Under the pieces are notes generated by a model. The model was not told the DNA's origin and made no database searches. It saw nothing but the letters and a program-made list of their open reading frames with translations. The position numbers and the translations under genes are program-made. From the IMG/VR virus record IMGVR_UViG_3300033145_000192, positions 1 to 64,000 of that record: 64,000 bases of DNA; one strand, 5' to 3'. This document shows positions 1,433 through 48,661 of this stretch, piece by piece. Position 1 is the first letter of the stretch, and each line of letters starts with the position of its first letter. The stretch is from a virus.

Positions 1433-2649
1433 ATGTGGACACCTGTGGGAAAGAGACAGTTACGAATGAAACGAAGGGCAGTAGTCAAGAAACTACTTAT
1501 AGACGCTTATTCCTACATTGACACTTATGGTGATATCCAAACTGGTCTCATGCTTATCCGTAGGGCACTAGAAGAAGTGGATAAGGAAAAGCAATCCAAG
1601 TGGAAAGAGACACCCACAAAATGAATAGTGTCTTGGCTATGGGCTTTGGTCACGTTTTCTTTGAGGCTCCAAAAGATGCAACGCAGAGTGAAGTTATGAA
1701 CCTTGCCTGCGAAGCTATGAATACAACCGGAGAGGATGTTTCACTCATCATCGTATTTGATGGGTTACTTCCAAAGATTCTCTCCAAAACTCACTACTAT
1801 ACAGACTAGGAGGCATCATGCCTGAATTCGATATTGTTTACCAGTTTACGGTTACCGGCGTTCGAACTGTTGAGGGCGATACGCCCGAGGCGGCTGTCAC
1901 TGAGCACGCTCAGGATATCACCGATGGTATTTCGGATGAGCTTGGTCCTGGCGCTATGCTCGACAATCTGTCCTCAGCGGTCTATGAGCACGATGAGGAT
2001 ATGCTTGAGAACGATATCGCCTCAATCCAGCAGCGAATTGCCGATGGCCACGAAACCCTGACGCACAGCTATCCGAAGTCACGCTAGGTTCAAAAGCGAC
2101 TCACGAGAGACGAATTTGAAACGAACAGTGTCCATTTGGCGACACTGACACGAAGGAATAAGGACTTATGACTGGCACACGATTTGCTCCTGGTAGGCTA
2201 GGAGCCGCGCTAGTTCTGGCACTTTGCATATGGCTGTGGCCACTATGGCTGATATGCTCCTACTGTCATAACGACCTTGTTTACAAGCAGACGTTGTGTG
2301 AAGGGTGCTATATGCACCTGGTTCCACCCGAAAAGTAATCGCGGAAAGACAAATGAAAAGTAAACACATCAGCGGAGACAAGGTGCTTGTTAAGGTCCCG
2401 AGTCCCATGCCGCACCCATTCGACAAGTTTTCTTCAGAATGGATTACTTTCATTAGAAGCCGGGATGGAAGCGAAGTCACACTCGAAAGCTGGAAGCTAG
2501 TTAGCGGTCTTAATGGCCGACACTGGGGCTTTACTATCACAGAAAACAAGTCACGTTCATTTGTTAGTAACTGGATACCGAACGAATGGTTAATCAAACA
2601 CACTGACGCCGGACTATACAAGAGTCCATTCAGTGATAGGTGGGTATAG
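1433..2649 (+). other. Run of small hypothetical phage ORFs (1433-1624, 1600-1809, 1818-2087, 2305-2649)
   Basis: Abutting or overlapping + strand ORFs, some with GGAG-type RBS; no recognised motifs. Confidence 0.55.
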
Positions 2650-5134: not shown

Positions 5135-6403
5135 ATGACTGAAATCAATAGAGTTATGCTTATCAAGACCGACGCTGACGAGAACAATAACAAGTTCTGG
5201 GAAGCAATAGTCAACGACGATGGACGAGTAGACTGTCGATGGGGCCGAGTTGGCGCTAATGGACAGTCTAAGTCTTTTAATGGCGGTCAGACATATCTCG
5301 ACAAGAAGATGAGAGAAAAGGCCAAGAAGGGCTATCGTGAGGCAAAGGTAGTTACGGGTTCTAGCTCAACTACCACGACCGTAGCCGACTCCACCCTGAG
5401 AAATATCGCCAAGAAGCAGATTGAGCACAGTAGCCCCGAAACGGCCAAGCTCATCGAATATCTGGTGAAAGTCAATGCACATCAAATTACCAAGGCTTCT
5501 GGTGGTCAACTAAATGTTGATGCTGCCACTGGCATGATTAAGACTCCTCTTGGAGTGCTTACGCAGGAAGCTATTGACGACGCTCGTGACCTACTCATAG
5601 AGCTAAGTAAGTTGCGGGTTCCATCAAAACGAACGACGCCAAAGTTCAAAAGCAGCGTGCAGGATTACCTAATGTTGGTGCCGCAGGTTGTTGGGCGTAA
5701 GCGTGGCTGGCTCGAAACGATGTTTCCCGACACCGATAGCGTGCAGAAGCAGAATGCTTTGCTTGACTCACTTGAGGCAACGCTAGGCGCTATTGCGACT
5801 ACACCACAAGCGGCTGCTATTCCTGCCGACCAGGTGTTCAATGTTAAGTTGGTCCTCGTTGACGACAAGGCGACAAAGGCCAAGATTAACAGGCTCTACA
5901 CTCAGACTAGGAAAAGGATGCACACGAGCTATAAGCTCCAGCCCAAAAGAATCTTCATGGTGGATATCGCGAGGATGGCTGGTGCATTTGACAACGACGG
6001 TGCTAAGGTCGGAAATGTAAAGGAGTTGTGGCACGGCACGCGAGCCTCTAACCTCCTTAGTATTCTGAAGGGTGGCCTTATCATCCCGTCTAGCAATGCT
6101 GGACACGTTACGGGACGTATGTATGGTAATGGCGTCTACTTTAGCGACCAAAGCACCAAGGCATTGAACTATGCTCACGGTTACTGGGGTGGCGGCTATG
6201 ACAACACTTGCTATATGTTCCTAACGGACGTTGCTATGGGCAAGGAATATGTCCCATCTGGATATGGCGATAGACGAAGCCTCCCTCGAAAGGGATATGA
6301 CTCCACGTTTGCTAATGGCGGCCAGTCTGGCGTTGCAAACAACGAGATGATTGTCTATCGTGTTTCTCAATGTAACCTCAAGTTCCTAGTGGAGTTTAGC
6401 TAA
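5135..6403 (+). CDS. WGR-domain poly(ADP-ribose) polymerase-like ADP-ribosyltransferase
   Basis: N-terminal WGR (NNKFWE...WGRVG); helical middle region; catalytic H-Y-E triad in WHGT, G.MYGNGVYFSD..TKALNY, NNEMIVY. Confidence 0.9.
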   Translation: MTEINRVMLIKTDADENNNKFWEAIVNDDGRVDCRWGRVGANGQSKSFNGGQTYLDKKMREKAKKGYREAKVVTGSSSTTTTVADSTLRNIAKKQIEHSSPETAKLIEYLVKVNAHQITKASGGQLNVDAATGMIKTPLGVLTQEAIDDARDLLIELSKLRVPSKRTTPKFKSSVQDYLMLVPQVVGRKRGWLETMFPDTDSVQKQNALLDSLEATLGAIATTPQAAAIPADQVFNVKLVLVDDKATKAKINRLYTQTRKRMHTSYKLQPKRIFMVDIARMAGAFDNDGAKVGNVKELWHGTRASNLLSILKGGLIIPSSNAGHVTGRMYGNGVYFSDQSTKALNYAHGYWGGGYDNTCYMFLTDVAMGKEYVPSGYGDRRSLPRKGYDSTFANGGQSGVANNEMIVYRVSQCNLKFLVEFS

Positions 6404-7507: not shown

Positions 7508-7659
7508 GCGAGAGTAGCTCAAGTTGGTAGAGCGGCGGGGTGATTCCCGTGTTAGTTCTTAGTGACTGACCCATTTAACTTTACCTAGGGAAAGTTGTGG
7601 AATCATGTGTTAGTCTAGACACATGCTAAGACGTGAAGGTTCAAATCCTTCTTCTCGCA
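7508..7659 (+). ncRNA. tRNA-like RNA with anticodon/variable region expanded to four hairpins
   Basis: Acceptor GCGAGAG/TTCTCGC, D arm GCTC/GAGC, T arm GAAGG-TTCAAAT-CCTTC; about 95 nt of hairpins between D and T arms. Confidence 0.7.
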
Positions 7660-11506: not shown

Positions 11507-11898
11507 TGGAAATTCTCGTAATGGTTGGTAGCTGGCTTCTCCCTCTACTAGCGTCACTTTTGACCATCCTTGCTATCGCGGGTGTCAAGAAGTTGATGGA
11601 TAAGTGGAGCGTTGAGCGCAGCGACAAGATTGACGACATGATTGACAGATATGTCCGCATGGGCGTCAATGCTGCTGAGGTTGCTGGCACGAAATACCTT
11701 GAGATGCAAGGCGTCAAGATGGCCAGTGGCGATAAGAAGTCCACGGCTATTTCGGCTGTGCTACGCGAACTTGAGCAGAGCGGAGTCAAGGGTGTCGCAG
11801 AGGAGCTTATTGCTACTAGGATTGAGCATTGGCTAGAGGTCGATGGTAAGAATCCTGGCACGCCTTCGGACCCCACGGTGACTGGAGAGGACGCCTAG
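11506..11898 (+). CDS. Holin-like membrane protein
   Basis: N-terminal TM helix followed by a KK..A...V..EL...G...IE pattern seen in LL-H-type holins. Confidence 0.45.
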   Translation: MEILVMVGSWLLPLLASLLTILAIAGVKKLMDKWSVERSDKIDDMIDRYVRMGVNAAEVAGTKYLEMQGVKMASGDKKSTAISAVLRELEQSGVKGVAEELIATRIEHWLEVDGKNPGTPSDPTVTGEDA

Positions 11899-12251
11899 AA
11901 GGAGCATTAGCGACAATTGACGTTAAGGCTCTTACTGAGGCGGCAATCCTCTTGGCCAGTGAGAAGTTCAACTTGCGGAATCAACTAGATAATGATATGT
12001 TCAACCATGTCATTTATGTGACCAATAGAGTTCTTCTCCTGGCTAAGAGAGATGGTGTGGATAGAGAATCACTGATTCAGATGGGCAAGTATATTTGGCG
12101 ACTCATCCGTGTAATGCAGGCTTACAACGCAAAGCGCCGGGATGTTACCCTAGAAGAAATCATTGGCATCGTCACTGAGTTCAAAGCGGTATTCACCGGA
12201 GGATAGGCGCGGCAAGGTTGGACCTATTAAGGTCAAGAGGGTAGGGCAAAG

Positions 12252-13133
12252 GTGAATGAAATTCCCCAACGTGGATTCTATGTAGATACAAATGGACGCA
12301 TTTATCTTGACGGAGTGCGAACGACTCGCAGTTCGCTCTCTGGTCCAGCGTATCGTGGCCCATACAAGGCTGTAATCAAAAAGCCTGGTGAGCACATAAC
12401 AAAGCCAGACACCCCAGCAAAAGACAACTTCAAAGAACTGCAAGACAAAATGGTTGACGAGTTCCGCCATGCAGCTAAGGGTCTAGCTAAGGCTTGGGAT
12501 AGAGGGTGTCAAAACGGTGAGTGGGCTGATAAGGAAGATGATAAGGAATATGAGAAGGAGCGCGAGGCGGAAATGGGCGCGGTCTACGATGGTCGCCAGG
12601 TCACCTTTACTGCGAACGGCAGCCAGGCTATGCCACGTCTAGAGAAGGACTGTGTAGGTGACGAGGTTATCGAGCTTCAAGCCAATGTTGGTGAACTAAC
12701 TGACATTGTGACTGATATTGTTGAGACTGACCTGGGGCTTATCAAGGTCCAAACGGACAGTATGCAGAAGCAACTATCAGCACTCCAGAGCGTCGATATT
12801 GACGACGACTACGAAGGAGAAAAGCTGGATTCGTTCAAGACCAGAACCAAGGACGCAATTCAAGAGGCAGGCTTCGTTCTAGACGATATGGAGAATGCCG
12901 ACCGAATGCTTCAGGCTCGCGAAATGAAAAGGGCTTGCCTGGCAGAAAACAAACGACGCAACATTGGCGCACAGCTTACTGTGCAGGAACGTCTTGCAAA
13001 GTTGCGTGACACTCACGACGAAATTCGGAAGGAACGGGCTAACAAAGCCCCACTTTGGAAGACTTGTATGGTAGTGCTGTTTGGCGTGCTATTAGCAATC
13101 GCTATGCTCGTAGCTATCATCCTTGTCCTCTAG
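12252..13133 (+). CDS. Coiled-coil protein with C-terminal membrane anchor
   Basis: Heptad-rich middle; hydrophobic C-terminus. Confidence 0.55.
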   Translation: MNEIPQRGFYVDTNGRIYLDGVRTTRSSLSGPAYRGPYKAVIKKPGEHITKPDTPAKDNFKELQDKMVDEFRHAAKGLAKAWDRGCQNGEWADKEDDKEYEKEREAEMGAVYDGRQVTFTANGSQAMPRLEKDCVGDEVIELQANVGELTDIVTDIVETDLGLIKVQTDSMQKQLSALQSVDIDDDYEGEKLDSFKTRTKDAIQEAGFVLDDMENADRMLQAREMKRACLAENKRRNIGAQLTVQERLAKLRDTHDEIRKERANKAPLWKTCMVVLFGVLLAIAMLVAIILVL

Positions 13134-15628: not shown

Positions 15629-16555
15629 ATGAGAGAAATCATAATGTTGATGGGCTTTCCGGCCAGCGGCAAGAGCACGCTAACCAAGCAGTATGTCCGC
15701 TCAGGCTATGTGCCTCTCAATCGTGATACGATGGGTGGAACTATTAGCGGACTACACGCAAAGCTGCGTAATCTACTCAGTGACGCTCGAATGGAGCGCG
15801 TCATTCTGGACAACACATACGGGACTGCTGAATCACGCAGCGGTGCGCTGAAGGTTGCAGCGTCGTTCGGTGTGCCAGTCAAGTGCATATGGATGAAAAC
15901 CTCGATTGAGGATGCACAGTTCAATGCCGCCTGGAGAATAAAGTCACTCACTGGAGACATTCTTGCTCCTAAGAGTTGCAACCCACAGATATTCCCGCCT
16001 GTCGTTCTCTTTGCGTATCGCAAGAGGTTCGAGAAGCCGGATATGAGTGAGGGCTTTGCCTCAATCGAAGAGGTTGAGTTTGACAGAGAGATGCCAGCGG
16101 GCTATGACAATGCTGCGACCATCTTCGACTATGATGGAACGCTTCGGGAAACAATCAGCGGCGAGAAGTATCCTCGCACAGCAGATGACGTAAGGCTTCT
16201 ACCAGGAAGAAAAGAGACAGTTGACAAACTGATTGCAAGTGGTGCTATAGTATTGGGTGCCAGCAATCAAAGTGGGATTCATAAGGGGAGTTTGAGTCTT
16301 GCCGACGCAGAACATGCGTTCGCACGAACAAACAGACTATTGGGCCATCAACTCGACGTTCGTTTTTGTCCACATAAGAGCAACCCACTTTCATGTTGGT
16401 GCCGTAAGCCTATGCCTGGTATGGGCGTTGGATTTGTCGTGGACTACAAATTGGACCCGAAAAAGGTTACAATGGTAGGAGACATGACAAGTGACAAAAC
16501 ATTCGCAAGGAGATGTGGATTCAATTTCATCCACGCAAATGACTACTTCTGCTAA
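15629..16555 (+). CDS. Polynucleotide 5'-kinase / 3'-phosphatase (P-loop kinase plus HAD)
   Basis: GFPASGKST, LNRD, ILDNT; HAD motifs FDYDGT, SNQSG, CRKP.PGM, VGDM..D. Confidence 0.85.
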   Translation: MREIIMLMGFPASGKSTLTKQYVRSGYVPLNRDTMGGTISGLHAKLRNLLSDARMERVILDNTYGTAESRSGALKVAASFGVPVKCIWMKTSIEDAQFNAAWRIKSLTGDILAPKSCNPQIFPPVVLFAYRKRFEKPDMSEGFASIEEVEFDREMPAGYDNAATIFDYDGTLRETISGEKYPRTADDVRLLPGRKETVDKLIASGAIVLGASNQSGIHKGSLSLADAEHAFARTNRLLGHQLDVRFCPHKSNPLSCWCRKPMPGMGVGFVVDYKLDPKKVTMVGDMTSDKTFARRCGFNFIHANDYFC

Positions 16556-17568: not shown

Positions 17569-17961
17569 ATGACCGGTCGTTTGAATCGCTTTAAGCGTTA
17601 CGGTGGAGATTGGGGACAGCGGGTGCCTATGGTCGATTGCATAAAAGGCAGGCTCTACCATATAGGCTGTCGCAATATGGACTATGGCGTTTATGACGGC
17701 AAGGAAGGATTCATCGGAATCCGCGAAAAGTTCGGACATGAATTCCTGTTTACTGAGTATCATTTTGACCAGGGAGCACCTTTCGGCACCGTTCACACGG
17801 TAATTGATACCGAAATCGACATTCCCGAAGGAATCGAACTCAAAACACTCGTCCACAACGACGACAAGAAAACATTTAGCACATATCAACCGCTGTTTGA
17901 GTGGCTACAGAAGCACGAAACAGTAGAGGAGGCTCAAAATGGGCTACAAGAAAATACCTAA
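17569..17961 (+). CDS. Hypothetical protein
   Basis: ORF coupled between DHH and RNA ligase genes. Confidence 0.6.
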   Translation: MTGRLNRFKRYGGDWGQRVPMVDCIKGRLYHIGCRNMDYGVYDGKEGFIGIREKFGHEFLFTEYHFDQGAPFGTVHTVIDTEIDIPEGIELKTLVHNDDKKTFSTYQPLFEWLQKHETVEEAQNGLQENT

Positions 17962-18907
17962 CCTATACAGACCAGCCTCATCGCAGGCTGTAATCGGACG
18001 TGAGGCCGTATGGGCTATGGAGAAAATCCATGGAACTTCGGCTCACGTAGGCTTTTCTATCGCTGAGGGACTTCGGTTGTTCGCCGGTGGAATTAAGCAC
18101 GTCACATTTGAACAGATGATTGATGCTCGAATAGGACTCGACGTTATCGACCACAACTTCCGTCACTACATGGAAAACAACGTAGATGAGGTAATCGTCT
18201 ATGGTGAAGCATATGGTGGCAAGTGCCAGGCAATGAGCAACACTTATGGAGACCTTAACTTCGTTGCATTCGAGGTCAAGGTTGATGGTAAGTGGCTAAC
18301 TGTTCCCAAGGCAGAGAAGTGGGCTCGTAAGCTAGGATTTGATTTCGTTCATTACGAGAAGGGTCCTGCTACTGTCGAGTGGCTTGATGCACAGCGAGAC
18401 GCACAGAGCGTTCAGGCCGTTAAGAATGGCTGTGGAGAGGGCAAGGTCCGAGAGGGCATTGTCGTCCGCACGCTTGATGACGAGGTTGACCGCTTTGGTG
18501 AGCGTATCATCGCAAAGCATAAGTGCGACAAATTCAGCGAGACAAGAACTCCTAGAGAAATTGACCCCGAGCAGCAGAAAGTTTGGTCTGACGCCAGAGA
18601 AACTGCTGAGGAGTGGGTTACGGAGATGCGACTTGAGCATGTGCTCGACAAGATGATAGCCAACAAATGGCTAGAGCATCCTCTTGAGCCACGCAATACG
18701 CCCAAGGTCATCGGTGAGATGATTAAGGACGTTCGCATTGAGTCTGGTGTCGGCGGGTCTGACCCAGAGATTGAGTGGAGCAAGCCGATACAAAAGGCAG
18801 TTGGCTCTCGCACAGCACGAGTATTCAAGGACTGGCTGAAAAAGAACATCTGCTTGATTTGTCACTATCCGAACGGGACTCACGAGTCCGAGTGTCCAGA
18901 CAAATGA
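17939..18907 (+). CDS. RNA ligase (Rnl2-like nucleotidyltransferase)
   Basis: Motif I MEKIHGTS, III VYGEAYG, IIIa FVAFEV, IV EGIVVR, V IAKHK. Confidence 0.85.
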   Translation: MGYKKIPNLYRPASSQAVIGREAVWAMEKIHGTSAHVGFSIAEGLRLFAGGIKHVTFEQMIDARIGLDVIDHNFRHYMENNVDEVIVYGEAYGGKCQAMSNTYGDLNFVAFEVKVDGKWLTVPKAEKWARKLGFDFVHYEKGPATVEWLDAQRDAQSVQAVKNGCGEGKVREGIVVRTLDDEVDRFGERIIAKHKCDKFSETRTPREIDPEQQKVWSDARETAEEWVTEMRLEHVLDKMIANKWLEHPLEPRNTPKVIGEMIKDVRIESGVGGSDPEIEWSKPIQKAVGSRTARVFKDWLKKNICLICHYPNGTHESECPDK

Positions 18908-23698: not shown

Positions 23699-24065
23699 GG
23701 GGATGAAACGGCATCGACTCGCATGATGAAATGATGAATGCAGGCCGTGGAAGATACTCGGGCCACGTTAAAAAGGTATCGAAACTTTAATTGCCAAGAA
23801 CGTATTCAAGGCACGCCGTTACTACGGCATCCGCAGCACGGTTCGCCGTGCCGCAATCGTCGCTTAACCGATTGTAGTTAGGTCGTCTCCTAGACGAAAA
23901 TAGGACTCGTGCGGATATTCTCGTAAGCCGCAAGTTGTAAATAACGAGATAGTCGCTGGAACCAAGTAGCCAGATAGGTTGTTGGACCGATAAAACCAAC
24001 CAAGCCTGTGAAGAGTTTGTTGAAGATTGATGTAGAGGACTCGGGTTCGACTCCCGACATCTCCA
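23699..24065 (+). ncRNA. ssrA: tmRNA; tag reading frame 23793-23867 (AKNVFKARRYYGIRSTVRRAAIVA*)
   Basis: GGGGATG/CATCTCC-A acceptor with G3:U70, GGCATCGAC 5' motif, T arm TCGGG-TTCGACT-CCCGA, TAATT-GCC resume context. Confidence 0.92.
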
Positions 24066-24124
24066 TATTGGTTGTGGCCTCCTTTCGTAGCAGACCCCCG
24101 CTAGCATATCGGGTCATATATGCC

Positions 24125-24207
24125 AGGGATATACGCCACGCGGAGTAGAGCGGTCTTGTTTTCCGGCGCAGCAAGATGTGTGGTGGGTTCGACTCCCACT
24201 ATCCCCA
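24125..24207 (+). ncRNA. tRNA-like element with extended anticodon arm
   Basis: Acceptor GGGATA/TATCCC, T arm GTGGG-TTCGACT-CCCAC, 8-bp stem GTCTTGTT/AGCAAGAT with 9-nt loop; weak D arm. Confidence 0.55.
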
Positions 24208-25838: not shown

Positions 25839-25867
25839 TTGACTCTCGTGGGTCTTGGAGCTATAAT
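25839..25867 (+). promoter_or_regulatory. Sigma70-like promoter heading the tRNA array
   Basis: TTGACT-N17-TATAAT. Confidence 0.72.
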
Positions 25868-26014: not shown

Positions 26015-26177
26015 ATGACTCATAAATGTTCGATTACTACAATTACGTTTAGTGTGAGATTGGCACGACTATATGTCCCTGCCAATTGGGAAGATACTAC
26101 GTAAAAAGGGCTTATCGAACTTCGCATTTACTTGCACAAACTGATGAGCCCGCACAAGATGCGGGCTTCTTTCGTTT
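26015..26177 (+). promoter_or_regulatory. Leader peptide (26015-26104, 29 aa) with alternative antiterminator/terminator stems
   Basis: RBS AGGAG; GGGCTTATCG (26108-17) pairs with TGATGAGCCC (26142-51), overlapping terminator AGCCCGCA/TGCGGGCT plus TTCTTTCGTTT. Confidence 0.55.
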
Positions 26178-26572: not shown

Positions 26573-26642
26573 TATAATGCCGCTTTATCAACATTCGTAG
26601 GGTAAAGCTAATTTCTGTTCATTAACAATTTAGGTTTCTCTT

Positions 26643-26727
26643 GAGTCATGCGTCTCGCTGGTGCGAGTGTCGGGTTGTAACCCCGGTCCCCTATTGGGGC
26701 AATTAGGTTCGAATCCTGAATGGCTCA
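26643..26727 (+). tRNA. tRNA-Tyr (GTA) with 5-bp D stem and 4-nt D loop
   Basis: Acceptor GAGTCAT/ATGGCTC; D arm CTCGC-TGGT-GCGAG; variable arm CCCC-TATT-GGGG. Confidence 0.75.
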
Positions 26728-26734
26728 TTCCGAA

Positions 26735-27350
26735 AAGATAACCAAAAGGCTGATTGAAAGGTCTGACGAAACGTCTGCGAAAGCACTTGAGTAACAAACG
26801 CATAGGCTCTAGAAACGTAGAACGGGTTAAATGCCCGACAGGCTCTTGAGCAAGTAGCACACGAAGTAGGACGACTAAGTAGATGCTGAGTAGGAAACCT
26901 CAGTAGGGAGTAAATTTGTAGTGTAATGGAAGCACACCGGCCAGCACATGCGTTAAGGAGCCGGTAGTTTGGGTTCGAATCCCAACGTGATTTGTAGTGG
27001 GTTGGCGAGGCTGGCAAGCTAAGTCAACTTAATCAAGGATTGCCACATAGAAGTGGAGAAAGCAGAATTGGGTGTTCTGCCTGCAAGGGGTCGCTACCTT
27101 TGTATTGCTTATCAAGCCCCACACGATACGGAGCGGTAGTGTAATAGTGAGACGTATAAATCCTAGCGGACCTTCACGTCGAGCACGTTGGGTAGACATA
27201 GGCCCAAAGGTGCTGGTGCAACTCCAGCCTGCCCCATTTCTAGTTCGGAAGAGTAGACTCGTTGTCTATTACGCCTCAAAGACTTGGCATTTACATGCGG
27301 CGTTCAGCAGTCAAGTCCGGTTCAGAGCCTAAATACGCCGCTCAGAGGGT
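26735..27350 (+). ncRNA. ROOL-like large ornate ncRNA containing two tRNA-like inserts (26912-26993, 27130-27236); boundaries approximate
   Basis: No credible ORF; many hairpins; long-range pair 26803-10/27324-31; remembered ROOL motifs CGTAGAA, GAGCAAGTAGCAC..AAGTAGG, GTAGTGGGTTGG, TTAATCAA, TTTGTAT, GAAGAGTAGAC, TACGCC..AAAGACTTGG in order. Confidence 0.7.
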
Positions 27351-27361
27351 AGCTAGAATAA

Positions 27362-27432
27362 GGGTCGTTGGTGTAATGGTAGCATGACGGATTCCAAACC
27401 CGTTGGTGAGGGTTCAAGTCCTTTACGGCCCG
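27362..27432 (+). tRNA. tRNA-Trp (CCA)
   Basis: Cloverleaf, loop TT-CCA-AA, G73. Confidence 0.88.
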
Positions 27433-27443
27433 TTTGATATAAG

Positions 27444-27519
27444 CGCGAGGTCGCCTAACCTGTGTATGGCACTGCATTTGGGGTGCAGAATAATCTGGGT
27501 TCGAATCCCAGTCTCGCGA
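27444..27519 (+). tRNA. tRNA-Pro (TGG)
   Basis: Cloverleaf, CTGCA-TT TGG GG-TGCAG. Confidence 0.85.
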
Positions 27520-33217: not shown

Positions 33218-33284
33218 CGCTCGTTAGTTTAATAGAAAAACGCCAGGAACACTGGAGACCGTGGTGCAATTCCATGACGGGCCA
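33218..33284 (+). pseudogene. tRNA-like element with shrunken anticodon arm
   Basis: D arm GTTT/AAAC; stem CCAG/CTGG with 5-nt loop GAACA; T loop TGCAATT. Confidence 0.55.
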
Positions 33285-35652: not shown

Positions 35653-35723
35653 GCAAACCACTCTTAATGGATAAGAATTTGGCTTAAAACCAAGCATAGC
35701 GGGTTCGATTCCCGCACCTTTAT
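35653..35723 (+). pseudogene. Degenerate tRNA-Leu (TAA) lacking acceptor pairing
   Basis: D, anticodon and T arms intact; 5' and 3' strands do not pair. Confidence 0.55.
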
Positions 35724-45946: not shown

Positions 45947-46016
45947 TTTCAAAACTAGCTGATTGAAACCATTTGTCCTAGGCAACATTTGGAAGTAGAT
46001 GTTACGGTTTGGGAGT

Positions 46017-46087
46017 AGGGTCGTAGTGTAATAGCAACATACCCGTCGTTGAGGCGGGAGATGCGGGTGCAACTCCCGTCGAGTCTG
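46017..46087 (+). pseudogene. Atypical tRNA-Gln-like (TTG) element
   Basis: G33, T loop TGCAACT, G:G mismatch in acceptor. Confidence 0.55.
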
Positions 46088-48588: not shown

Positions 48589-48661
48589 GCAGCCATGGTG
48601 TTTAACGGTAGCATGTGAGGCTTCCAACCTCTTGGTTCGGGTTCGAATCCCGATGGCTGCT
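48589..48661 (+). tRNA. tRNA-Gly (TCC)
   Basis: Cloverleaf, U73. Confidence 0.9.

What the first reader, a model, noticed from the sequence alone, without database searches (positions are those of the whole stretch)
26735..27350. ROOL-like giant structured RNA with two tRNA-like domains built into it
Seen: about 600 nt without a credible ORF, dense hairpins (several GNRA loops) and a long-range helix TAGGCTCT/AGAGCCTA. Motifs I remember from ROOL RNAs appear in order. Two cloverleaf inserts interrupt them. Insert 1 (26912-26993) has D arm GTGT/GCAC, stem CCGGC/GCCGG with an 18-nt loop and a perfect T arm. Insert 2 (27130-27236) has a hairpin inserted in its D loop and T loop TGCAACT. Established: ROOL RNAs occur near phage tRNA genes and form RNA-only cage-like multimers. 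Inference: a natural cage RNA displaying non-decoding tRNA mimics as covalent cargo. I know of no description of this arrangement.
Basis: partly seen in the sequence, partly recalled or inferred. Interest (0 to 1): 0.9.

Follow-up and report, generated by a model that had tools for sequence, protein, structure and literature searches.

The report
Modular phage RNA with tRNA-like domains
The gap between two tRNA genes of this uncultured 177-kb phage holds a conserved, folded non-coding RNA of a kind not in Rfam, in which a tRNA look-alike has its enlarged "anticodon" loop base-paired to an upstream domain; it is not a ROOL or GOLLD RNA, and its function is unknown.

Summary
Window 26729-27236 lies between tRNA-Tyr and tRNA-Trp and is conserved in eight other distinct metagenomic phage sequences. 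Neighbouring spacers are not.

No ROOL, GOLLD or other large-RNA model of Rfam 15 matches it, even at E<=10, here or in four relatives.

It is built from four modules:
- A: purine-rich repeats around a small closed core.
- B: tRNA-like 1.
- C: a closed multi-helix domain.
- D: tRNA-like 2.

A+B is the constant unit (9 of 9 sequences). C and D come and go.

The key new feature is a 9-12-bp helix between the strand that starts within the invariant TAACAA (26796-26808) and the 18-nt "anticodon" loop of tRNA-like 1 (26943-26955). Eight of its 12 pairs show compensatory changes.

tRNAs built into a large phage RNA are already described for GOLLD.

Function is inferred only. My best guess is a stable RNA processed out of the tRNA array that offers repeat motifs and tRNA mimics to some partner.

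This scan has noted other uncatalogued RNAs in phage tRNA arrays. None resembles this one in sequence.

The parts
26642..26728 (+). tRNA-Tyr (GTA). Its 3' end sets the 5' border of the element.
   Evidence: ARAGORN. The same neighbour is present upstream in L004, L005, L008, L010, L014 and L018; L015 and L017 are short contigs with no tRNA-Tyr call.
26729..26782 (+). Module A, 5' tail. Purine-rich and C-poor, with GAAAR motifs at about a 12-nt period. No conserved pairing was found.
   Evidence: Alignment A1. Motif positions and base composition in 9 homologues.
26783..26791 (+). Helix Px, 5' strand. It pairs with 26843-26851 and closes the core of module A.
   Evidence: Anchored pair count in 9 sequences: 66 of 81 cells paired against 35-51% when shifted, with several pair types per position.
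26792..26797 (+). Invariant hexamer TAACAA.
   Evidence: Invariant in 9 of 9 sequences.
26796..26808 (+). Pseudoknot 5' strand. It pairs with the loop of tRNA-like 1 (26943-26955).
   Evidence: 12 pairs, 8 with compensatory change, 93.5% of cells paired. RNAalifold picks this helix unprompted. RNAduplex puts the best loop-to-A duplex at this site in 9 of 9 sequences.
26823..26837 (+). Core hairpin: 4-5 bp stem with a conserved 7-nt loop TTAAATG.
   Evidence: The closing pair changes from C-G to G-C in two sequences, and one pair shows a G-C to G-U change.
26843..26851 (+). Helix Px, 3' strand.
26852..26911 (+). Module A, 3' linker. AGTAR motifs at an 11-13-nt period. The last two copies (TTAGTAGAT-type) are the best conserved.
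26912..26993 (+). Module B, tRNA-like 1: acceptor 26912-18/26986-92, D arm 26921-24/26932-35, stem 26937-41/26960-64, 18-nt loop 26942-59, T arm 26969-73/26981-85.
   Evidence: Rfam tRNA 39.8 bits. Not called by ARAGORN. All four stems covary.
26943..26955 (+). Pseudoknot 3' strand, inside the enlarged 'anticodon' loop.
26994..27129 (+). Module C. A domain of about 135 nt, closed by its own ends, with at least four internal hairpins. Present in the window, L004, L005 and L010 only.
   Evidence: RNAalifold on 4 sequences: 36 pairs, 14 with compensatory change. 92.4% of cells paired against 30-44% when slid.
27130..27236 (+). Module D, tRNA-like 2: acceptor 27130-36/27229-35, A at 27236, D stem 27139-42/27183-86 with an inserted hairpin 27151-55/27176-80, stem 27188-93/27202-07 with the 8-nt loop AGACATAG, and T arm 27212-16/27224-28 with loop TGCAACT.
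   Evidence: Sequence. Alignment A5 of the window, L004, L005 and L018. The L005 copy lacks the D-loop hairpin and scores 29.2 bits on Rfam tRNA.
27237..27361 (+). Non-conserved tail, not part of the element.
   Evidence: Absent in L004, where tRNA-Trp follows D after 3 nt. Unrelated sequence in L005.
27362..27432 (+). tRNA-Trp (CCA), the downstream neighbour.
   Evidence: ARAGORN and Rfam.

Best explanation
Shown:
- Window 26729-27236 (+ strand) encodes a conserved structured non-coding RNA locus of a family that is not in Rfam.
- It sits in the tRNA array of an uncultured 177-kb phage that has rIIA/rIIB genes.
- It is a chain of independently folding modules. The constant unit is A+B, about 265 nt.
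- In A+B, a purine-rich upstream domain has a small core closed by helix Px. A strand that starts within the invariant TAACAA pairs over 9-12 bp with the enlarged 17-25-nt 'anticodon' loop of a cloverleaf tRNA mimic. That mimic keeps a canonical D loop and T loop.
- In this phage two optional modules follow: a closed 135-nt domain (C), and a second tRNA mimic (D) with a normal G+C-rich acceptor stem and A73.

Inferred:
- The locus is transcribed with the tRNA genes and cut out by the tRNA-processing enzymes. The 3' end of tRNA-Tyr sets its 5' end. RNase P cleavage of tRNA-Trp and trimming back to the acceptor end of D set its 3' end.
- The tRNA-like bodies serve as folding, stability and processing handles. 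They cannot decode, because the loop of B is occupied and oversized and D has an 8-nt loop.
- The single-stranded periodic repeats (GAAAR and UAGUAG-type, about 12-nt spacing) offer several binding sites for a host or phage factor of translation or RNA metabolism. On this reading the RNA acts as a stable decoy or sponge during infection.

Odds:
- Real structured RNA family, not ROOL or GOLLD: about 0.9.
- A+B folds as one unit through the pseudoknot: about 0.8.
- The sponge or decoy role: about 0.3.
- The overall confidence given (0.55) is for the statement as a whole, weighing the shown and the inferred parts together.
For: Conservation:
- blastn and nhmmer find the element between tRNA-Tyr and tRNA-Trp in L004 (83% identity) and in L005/L006 (66-67% identity, E 2.6e-45).
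- They also find it in L008/9, L010-12, L014, L015, L017 and L018.
- Between the window and L005, only ORFs, tRNAs, tmRNA and this element align. Other spacers do not.

Structure of A+B:
- 39 pairs, 96.3% of cells paired against 31-41% when the partner is slid.
- 26 pairs have compensatory changes, and 0 of 500 shuffles reach the observed values.

Pseudoknot:
- 12 pairs, 8 of them compensatory.
- RNAalifold chooses it unprompted.
- It is the best loop-to-A duplex, at the same site, in 9 of 9 sequences.

Other parts:
- Px: 66 of 81 cells paired.
- C: 14 of 36 pairs compensatory in only 4 sequences.
- D: the acceptor and the hairpin covary.

Strand:
- Conserved G-U pairs (for example U-G in 8 of 9 and G-U in 9 of 9 sequences) would be A-C mismatches on the other strand.
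- All tRNA genes lie on the + strand.

Other points:
- No conserved ORF.
- The repeats and purine richness are found in all homologues.
- Precedent for tRNA-like modules that are cut by RNase P and receive CCA: YrlA (PMC4201824).
Against: - No expression data. No RNA run was listed for this stretch, so transcript ends, processing and stability are all inferred.
- The function rests on anatomy alone. No partner protein was found: there is no Ro/TROVE and no reverse transcriptase in the genome.
- No complementary target for the repeats was found in the genome.
- The MFE of the whole stretch is ordinary (z = -0.38).
- Only nine distinct sequences are known, all from one phage clade. The shuffle controls therefore overstate significance for related sequences. 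The slide controls and the number of pair types are the sounder evidence.
- An 18-nt loop cannot easily form all 12 pairs while its own 5-bp stem is closed. Either about 9 pairs form, or the two helices alternate.
Confidence: 0.55

Rival explanations
1. One reading: one giant ROOL/GOLLD-type RNA that multimerises into an RNA-only cage and displays tRNA mimics as covalent cargo. A weaker form: an unrelated third family that does the same. In that form the A-strand to B-loop pairing would be made between molecules.
For: - Context is like that of ROOL and GOLLD: phage, next to tRNA genes (PMC5737381; Kretsch et al.).
- GOLLD can carry tRNAs in its linker.
- Covariation cannot tell pairing within a molecule from pairing between molecules.
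- In L008, L010 and L018 the pairing strand is a palindrome.
Against: - No ROOL or GOLLD covariance-model match at E<=10 here, or at E<=1 in four relatives.
- The conserved unit is only about 265 nt. C and D are optional.
- The claimed closing helix is at chance level and is not conserved.
- About half of module A looks single-stranded, unlike the densely paired ROOL.
Confidence: 0.07
2. Punctuation model. The tRNA mimics B and D are simply processing signals. RNase P and RNase Z cut at them and release A and C as separate small stable RNAs, as with the non-tRNA stable RNAs of the T4 and T5 tRNA regions. A would then stay bound to B in trans through the 9-12-bp helix, or leave it.
For: - B has a canonical elbow (GG in the D loop, TTCGAAT T loop), and D has a 7-bp acceptor with A73.
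- C is closed by its own ends and flanked directly by B and D.
- The modules are gained and lost singly.
- M. smegmatis YrlA is cut by RNase P at its tRNA-like module (PMC4201824).
Against: - The helix between A and the B loop argues that A and B work together.
- The acceptor stem of B is weak in the window: two mismatches and two G-U pairs.
- In all 9 sequences the acceptor is preceded by an invariant GU that can extend the helix by two pairs. That is unlike the real tRNAs of the array, where G at -2 occurs in 2 of 41.
Confidence: 0.25
3. Defence decoy. The tRNA mimics are bait for host tRNA-directed defences such as anticodon nucleases or tRNA-sensing systems, and so spare the real tRNAs.
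For: The phage carries a polynucleotide kinase-phosphatase (15629-16555) and an RNA ligase (17939-18907), the T4-type tRNA repair pair. It also has about 42 tRNAs and a tmRNA. This suggests pressure on its tRNA pool.
Against: - The loop of B is 17-25 nt and base-paired, and D has an 8-nt loop. Neither resembles a natural anticodon loop that a nuclease would recognise.
- This model does not explain modules A and C.
Confidence: 0.1
4. No function: decayed tRNA gene copies plus neutral spacer.
For: - tRNA arrays breed pseudogenes.
- The acceptor stem of B is poor in the window.
- The MFE is ordinary.
Against: - The element is alignable at 66-67% identity where neighbouring spacers are not.
- Compensatory changes occur in every stem, in a long-range helix, and in the non-tRNA modules.
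- B and D are not close to any tRNA of the array or to each other.
Confidence: 0.03

Closest known systems
GOLLD RNA (Rfam RF01998) and ROOL RNA (RF03087)
   Same: Large structured non-coding RNAs of phages and prophages, often beside tRNA islands. GOLLD sometimes has tRNAs inside its linker (Kretsch et al., bioRxiv 10.1101/2024.12.08.627333; PMC5737381).
   Different: No covariance-model similarity. The constant unit here is about 265 nt, with long repeat-bearing stretches that look unpaired. The tRNA-like domain is tied into the fold by its loop, rather than sitting in a variable linker. Multimer formation is unknown.
YrlA / bacterial and phage Y RNAs (Rfam RF02553; Chen et al. 2014, PMC4201824)
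   Same: A non-coding RNA with a built-in tRNA-like module (D and T arms, acceptor-like stem). It is recognised by tRNA enzymes and is also found in phages.
   Different: No YrlA model hit in the element. No Ro/TROVE gene in the genome. Here the full cloverleaf is kept and its loop is paired to an upstream strand. In YrlA the protein-binding stem replaces an arm.
tmRNA (RF00023)
   Same: A tRNA-like domain joined to pseudoknotted RNA. The phage and its relatives carry a true tmRNA 3 kb upstream.
   Different: The element has no tmRNA model match, no tag reading frame, and a complete local cloverleaf instead of an acceptor stem formed by the two ends of the RNA.
T-box Stem I bound to tRNA
   Same: An RNA domain that holds a tRNA by base-pairing to its anticodon loop. 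The core hairpin loop TTAAATG has the U...A spacing of a T-loop motif; that is my inference from the sequence.
   Different: Here the pairing is in cis, 9-12 bp rather than a codon. There is no antiterminator and no downstream gene. No T-box model matched.
Stable non-tRNA RNAs of the T4 (species 1 and 2) and T5 tRNA regions
   Same: Non-tRNA stable RNAs encoded inside phage tRNA clusters and made by the tRNA-processing pathway. This rests on my own knowledge and on earlier notes of this scan.
   Different: No sequence similarity to any record of the phage collection by blastn. Their structures were not compared here.

Membership tests
ROOL (RF03087) | Match to the family covariance model | tested here: not met
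   No hit at gathering score on the window, none at E<=10 on 26600-27450, none at E<=1 in L004, L005, L008 and L010.
ROOL (RF03087) | [quoted passage not shown] | tested here: not met
   The conserved unit is about 265 nt with one long-range helix. The further modules are optional.
ROOL / GOLLD | Phage or prophage location near tRNA genes | tested here: met
   Inside an array of about 42 tRNA genes in a 177-kb phage.
ROOL / GOLLD | Self-assembly into a closed homo-oligomeric cage | not testable with these tools
   Needs cryo-EM, mass photometry or native gels.
GOLLD (RF01998) | Match to the family covariance model, with its conserved 3' domain | tested here: not met
tRNA (RF00005), for insert 1 | Cloverleaf that scores above the family cut-off | tested here: met
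   39.8 bits against a cut-off of 29. L004 copy: 33.6 bits.
tRNA (RF00005), for insert 1 | 7-nt anticodon loop able to decode | tested here: not met
   The loop columns of alignment A1 (254-278, which can include a flanking stem pair) hold 19-25 nt in all nine homologues, 18 nt in the window counted directly. Its sequence pairs with 26796-26808. ARAGORN does not call it here, and calls it Pro, Cys, Arg or Ala in relatives only by allowing an intron.
tRNA (RF00005), for insert 2 | Cloverleaf that scores above the cut-off, with a 7-nt anticodon loop | tested here: not met
   No tRNA hit in the window. It has a hairpin in the D loop, an 8-nt loop, and G in place of U55 in the T loop. The L005 copy, without the D-loop hairpin, scores 29.2 bits.
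YrlA / Y RNA (RF02553) | Model match and a neighbouring Ro (TROVE) gene | tested here: not met
   No YrlA hit in the element. PF05731 is absent from the whole phage genome.
Retron or RT-primed RNA | An associated reverse transcriptase | tested here: not met
   PF00078 is absent from the genome.

The most novel reading that the evidence does not exclude
Module A is an RNA receptor for a tRNA anticodon loop, and its pairing with tRNA-like 1 is made between molecules as well as within one. The RNA would then chain or close into a multimeric RNA-only assembly studded with tRNA mimics. That would be a third family of phage RNA architecture, unrelated to ROOL and GOLLD.
Probability: 0.08. Interest if true: 0.9.

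Novelty: new variant of a known kind. Interest (0 to 1): 0.6.

Why it matters
Large phages with tRNA arrays keep yielding conserved RNAs of unknown role, such as GOLLD, ROOL, the T4 and T5 stable RNAs and Y RNAs.

This one adds a defined architecture supported by covariation. A complete tRNA cloverleaf has its anticodon loop captured by an upstream RNA domain, and that domain is flanked by periodic single-stranded repeats. This gives a concrete, testable object for asking what non-decoding tRNA mimics do in phage infection. It also shows that the tRNA-likes in such arrays can be integral parts of larger folds rather than pseudogenes.

For annotation, gene finders mislabel the mimic in relatives as tRNA-Pro, tRNA-Cys, tRNA-Arg or tRNA-Ala.

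Tried and rejected
- Expression: no RNA holder was listed for the stretch. The one run listed was a DNA run holding a 0.05 share of the words.
- Phage GenBank collection: no blastn match.
- IMG/VR:
  - PhoH relatives are only 38-41% identical and lack the element.
  - The neighbouring 341-aa protein gave no relative.
  - Two DNA patterns gave no hit.
- GTDB genomes: one pattern gave nothing. The looser one gave one chance match inside a coding region of a Desulfamplus MAG (L025).
- Metagenome pattern scan: L013 was a chance match.
- Relatives that lack the element by nhmmer: L007, L020, L021 and L022. L023/L024 (Tara, marine) have ORFs, not a tRNA array, after PhoH.
- Look-ups that gave no DNA: P0008 and P0009.
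- Partner searches that found nothing:
  - a partner for the 8-nt loop of tRNA-like 2;
  - a complementary target of the UAGUAG-type repeat in the genome.
- Origin of the mimics: no tRNA of the array stands out as a parent of either one.
- ORFs 27072-27332 (+) and 26703-27017 (-): rejected as genes. Their translations are of odd composition and the frames are not kept in relatives.
It was redone from alignment columns.
- No covariance model of the family was built.
- Earlier notes of this scan hold no look-alike sequence.

Full report
**Setting.**
- The window is the first 64 kb of a 177,375-bp IMG/VR phage record with direct terminal repeats.
- It carries rIIA/rIIB-like genes, PhoH, peptide deformylase, a polynucleotide kinase-phosphatase, an RNA ligase and a PARP-like protein.
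- It also carries a tmRNA and about 42 tRNA genes, all on the + strand.
- The finding is the 633-nt gap between tRNA-Tyr (26642-26728) and tRNA-Trp (27362-27432).

**The observation.**
- The sequence details of the two cloverleaf inserts are correct.
- Insert 1 scores 39.8 bits on the Rfam tRNA model, but ARAGORN does not call it.
- No credible ORF exists. The longest + frame (27072-27332, 86 aa) has an odd composition and is not kept in relatives.
- The ROOL resemblance fails its own proposed test. cmscan against all 4227 Rfam 15 families finds only tRNA-type hits, both at gathering score on the window and at E<=10 with permissive filters on 26600-27450.
- The same holds at E<=1 for four related loci.
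- The stretch is not unusually stable (MFE z = -0.38).
- The proposed closing helix is present (26803-26810 with 27324-27331). Perfect 8-nt complements are expected by chance in a stretch of this size: 4 seen, shuffles average 2.4.

**Relatives.**
- Nothing similar is in the GenBank phage collection or in IMG/VR.
- Using the neighbouring PhoH protein, I fetched syntenic metagenomic contigs.
- The element is found at the same place in L004 (PhoH 91% identical; DNA 83% identical over query positions 17-509) and in L005/L006 (PhoH 75%; DNA 66-67%, nhmmer E 2.6e-45).
- It is also in L008/L009 and L010-L012.
- A pattern matched by all five then recovered L014, L015, L017 and L018 from JGI metagenomes. 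That gives nine distinct sequences.
- Homology ends at window 27236-27238.
- Between the window and L005, only ORFs, tRNAs, tmRNA and this element align. Other spacers do not.
- Relatives L007, L020, L021 and L022 lack the element. It is single-copy in this genome.

**Anatomy.** The locus is modular.
- Module A (26729-26911) has three parts:
  - A 5' tail with GAAAR motifs at a period of about 12 nt.
  - A core closed by helix Px (26783-91 with 26843-51).
  - A linker with AGTAR motifs at a period of 11-13 nt.
  - It is purine-rich (A+G 59-67%) and C-poor in all homologues.
- The core holds the invariant TAACAA, a small variable hairpin, and a hairpin with the conserved loop TTAAATG (26823-37).
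- Module B is tRNA-like 1.
- Module C (26994-27129) is a domain closed by its own ends.
- Module D is tRNA-like 2.
- A+B is present in all nine sequences. C is only in the window, L004, L005 and L010. D is only in the window, L004, L005 and L018, where it follows B directly.

**The key result.**
- The strand that starts within TAACAA (26796-26808) pairs with the enlarged loop of tRNA-like 1 (26943-26955).
- The paired sequences differ between homologues and stay complementary. Four different versions of the 7-9-nt core are seen.
- RNAalifold chooses this helix on its own.
- Of its 12 pairs, 8 carry compensatory changes and 93.5% of cells pair.
- Independently of the alignment, the most stable duplex between the loop and the whole of module A falls at this site in 9 of 9 sequences.
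- For the whole A+B structure (39 pairs), 96.3% of cells pair, against 31-41% when the 3' partners are slid by 1-3 columns. 26 pairs show compensatory change.
- Px pairs in 66 of 81 cells, against 35-51% when shifted.
- Module C has 36 predicted pairs, 14 of them compensatory in only four sequences. 92.4% of cells pair against 30-44% when slid.
- In module D the acceptor and the hairpin stem covary, while the T arm and the 8-nt loop are invariant.
- Conserved G-U pairs fix the + strand as the RNA strand.
Only the pseudoknot is supported.

**What it is.**
- It is a structured non-coding RNA locus of a family that is not in Rfam.
- The tRNA-likes are not decoding tRNAs. B has a 17-25-nt loop that is occupied. 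D has an 8-nt loop, a hairpin in its D loop, and G where U55 should be.
- They are also not recent pseudogenes. Neither is close to any tRNA of the array or to the other, and their stems covary.
- ARAGORN mislabels B in relatives as tRNA-Pro (L010-L012), tRNA-Cys (L008, L009, L016, L019), tRNA-Arg (L014) or tRNA-Ala (L015).

**How it may work (inferred).**
- There is a strong promoter-like site just after PhoH (25839-25867) and no convincing terminator inside the element. The element is probably transcribed with the tRNAs.
- Its 5' end abuts the 3' end of tRNA-Tyr. Its 3' end is the acceptor end of D, a few nucleotides from tRNA-Trp in L004. Both ends can therefore be made by the tRNA-processing enzymes.
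- B keeps a canonical elbow (GG in the D loop, TTCGAAT T loop), so it may be seen by the enzymes that recognise tRNA.
- The invariant GU before the acceptor of B can extend that helix by two pairs. It is unlike the context of the real tRNAs. This weakly favours B staying joined to A.
- Geometry: an 18-nt loop closed by a 5-bp stem can hardly form all 12 pairs at once. Either about 9 pairs form, or the stem and the long-range helix alternate.
- The periodic purine-rich repeats show no conserved pairing, and I found no complementary target in the genome. They look like multivalent single-stranded binding sites.
- My best guess is a stable decoy or sponge RNA for a factor of translation or RNA metabolism, stabilised by tRNA-like handles (about 0.3).
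- The main rival is that B and D are only punctuation that releases A and C as separate small RNAs (0.25).
- A defence decoy (0.1) and a cage-forming RNA (0.07) cannot be excluded.
- Neutral decay is contradicted by the covariation.

**Comparison with known families.**
- ROOL and GOLLD share the context, and for GOLLD also the presence of tRNAs within the RNA. There is no model similarity.
- YrlA shares the built-in tRNA-like module. The element has no YrlA match, and the phage has no Ro gene.
- There is no reverse transcriptase.
- The pairing of an RNA domain to a tRNA anticodon loop recalls T-box Stem I. Here it is in cis, much longer, and without a regulated gene.

**Earlier notes of this scan.**
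- They describe other uncatalogued structured RNAs in phage tRNA arrays on other DNA.
- None shares sequence with this element.
- I treat them as context only.

**Verdict.**
- The ROOL label, the extent and the closing helix are wrong. A conserved structured RNA with two integral tRNA-like domains is right.
- The covarying capture of the tRNA-like loop by the upstream domain is a new and testable feature.

Noticed in passing
window 23699-24068; L004 3699-4088; L005 7865-8235; L008 8119-8501; L010 8648-9025: A phage-encoded tmRNA (Rfam 108 bits) with a long, basic 24-residue tag. It is conserved with similar tags in all syntenic relatives, always just upstream of peptide deformylase and PhoH.
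   Followed up: partly
window 15629-16555 and 17939-18907: A polynucleotide kinase-phosphatase-like gene (AAA_33 + PNK3P) and an RNA ligase (PF09414). This is the T4-type tRNA repair pair, and it suggests the host attacks tRNAs.
   Followed up: partly
L008 about 11860-11984; L010 about 12540-12687; L014 about 2220-2320 (minus strand): Relatives carry further odd tRNA-like elements whose T loops read TGCAANT (G in place of U55), like tRNA-like 2 of the window. Some lie directly upstream of module A. This looks like a recurring sub-class of tRNA mimic in this phage clade.
   Followed up: no
window 46017-46087, 33218-33284, 35662-35715, 48591-48658: Weak Rfam tRNA hits (34-39 bits). Three of them (46017-46087, 33218-33284, 35662-35715) are not called by ARAGORN, so the array holds more tRNA-like elements. 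48591-48658 coincides with ARAGORN's tRNA-Gly(tcc) at 48589-48661. nhmmer with the A+B profile also touches 45993-46086 (E 9e-5).
   Followed up: no
window 7508-7659: An Rfam tRNA hit (35.8 bits) that spans 152 nt, that is, a cloverleaf with an insertion of about 80 nt. It lies far from the main array.
   Followed up: no
window 25839-25867 and 26146-26168: A near-consensus sigma-70-type promoter (TTGACT-17-TATAAT, 11 of 12) right after PhoH. There is also a terminator-like hairpin (9 bp, 6 G-C, T-rich tail) between tRNA-Met and tRNA-Ile.
   Followed up: no
window 5135-6403: A protein with WGR, PARP regulatory and PARP catalytic domains. WGR-domain genes are also present in the relatives.
   Followed up: no
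window 24125-24207; L004 4146-4228; L005 8952-9034: ARAGORN calls a conserved tRNA-like gene with an abnormal anticodon loop (4-base or 2-base 'anticodon'). It overlaps the start of the peptide deformylase ORF.
   Followed up: no
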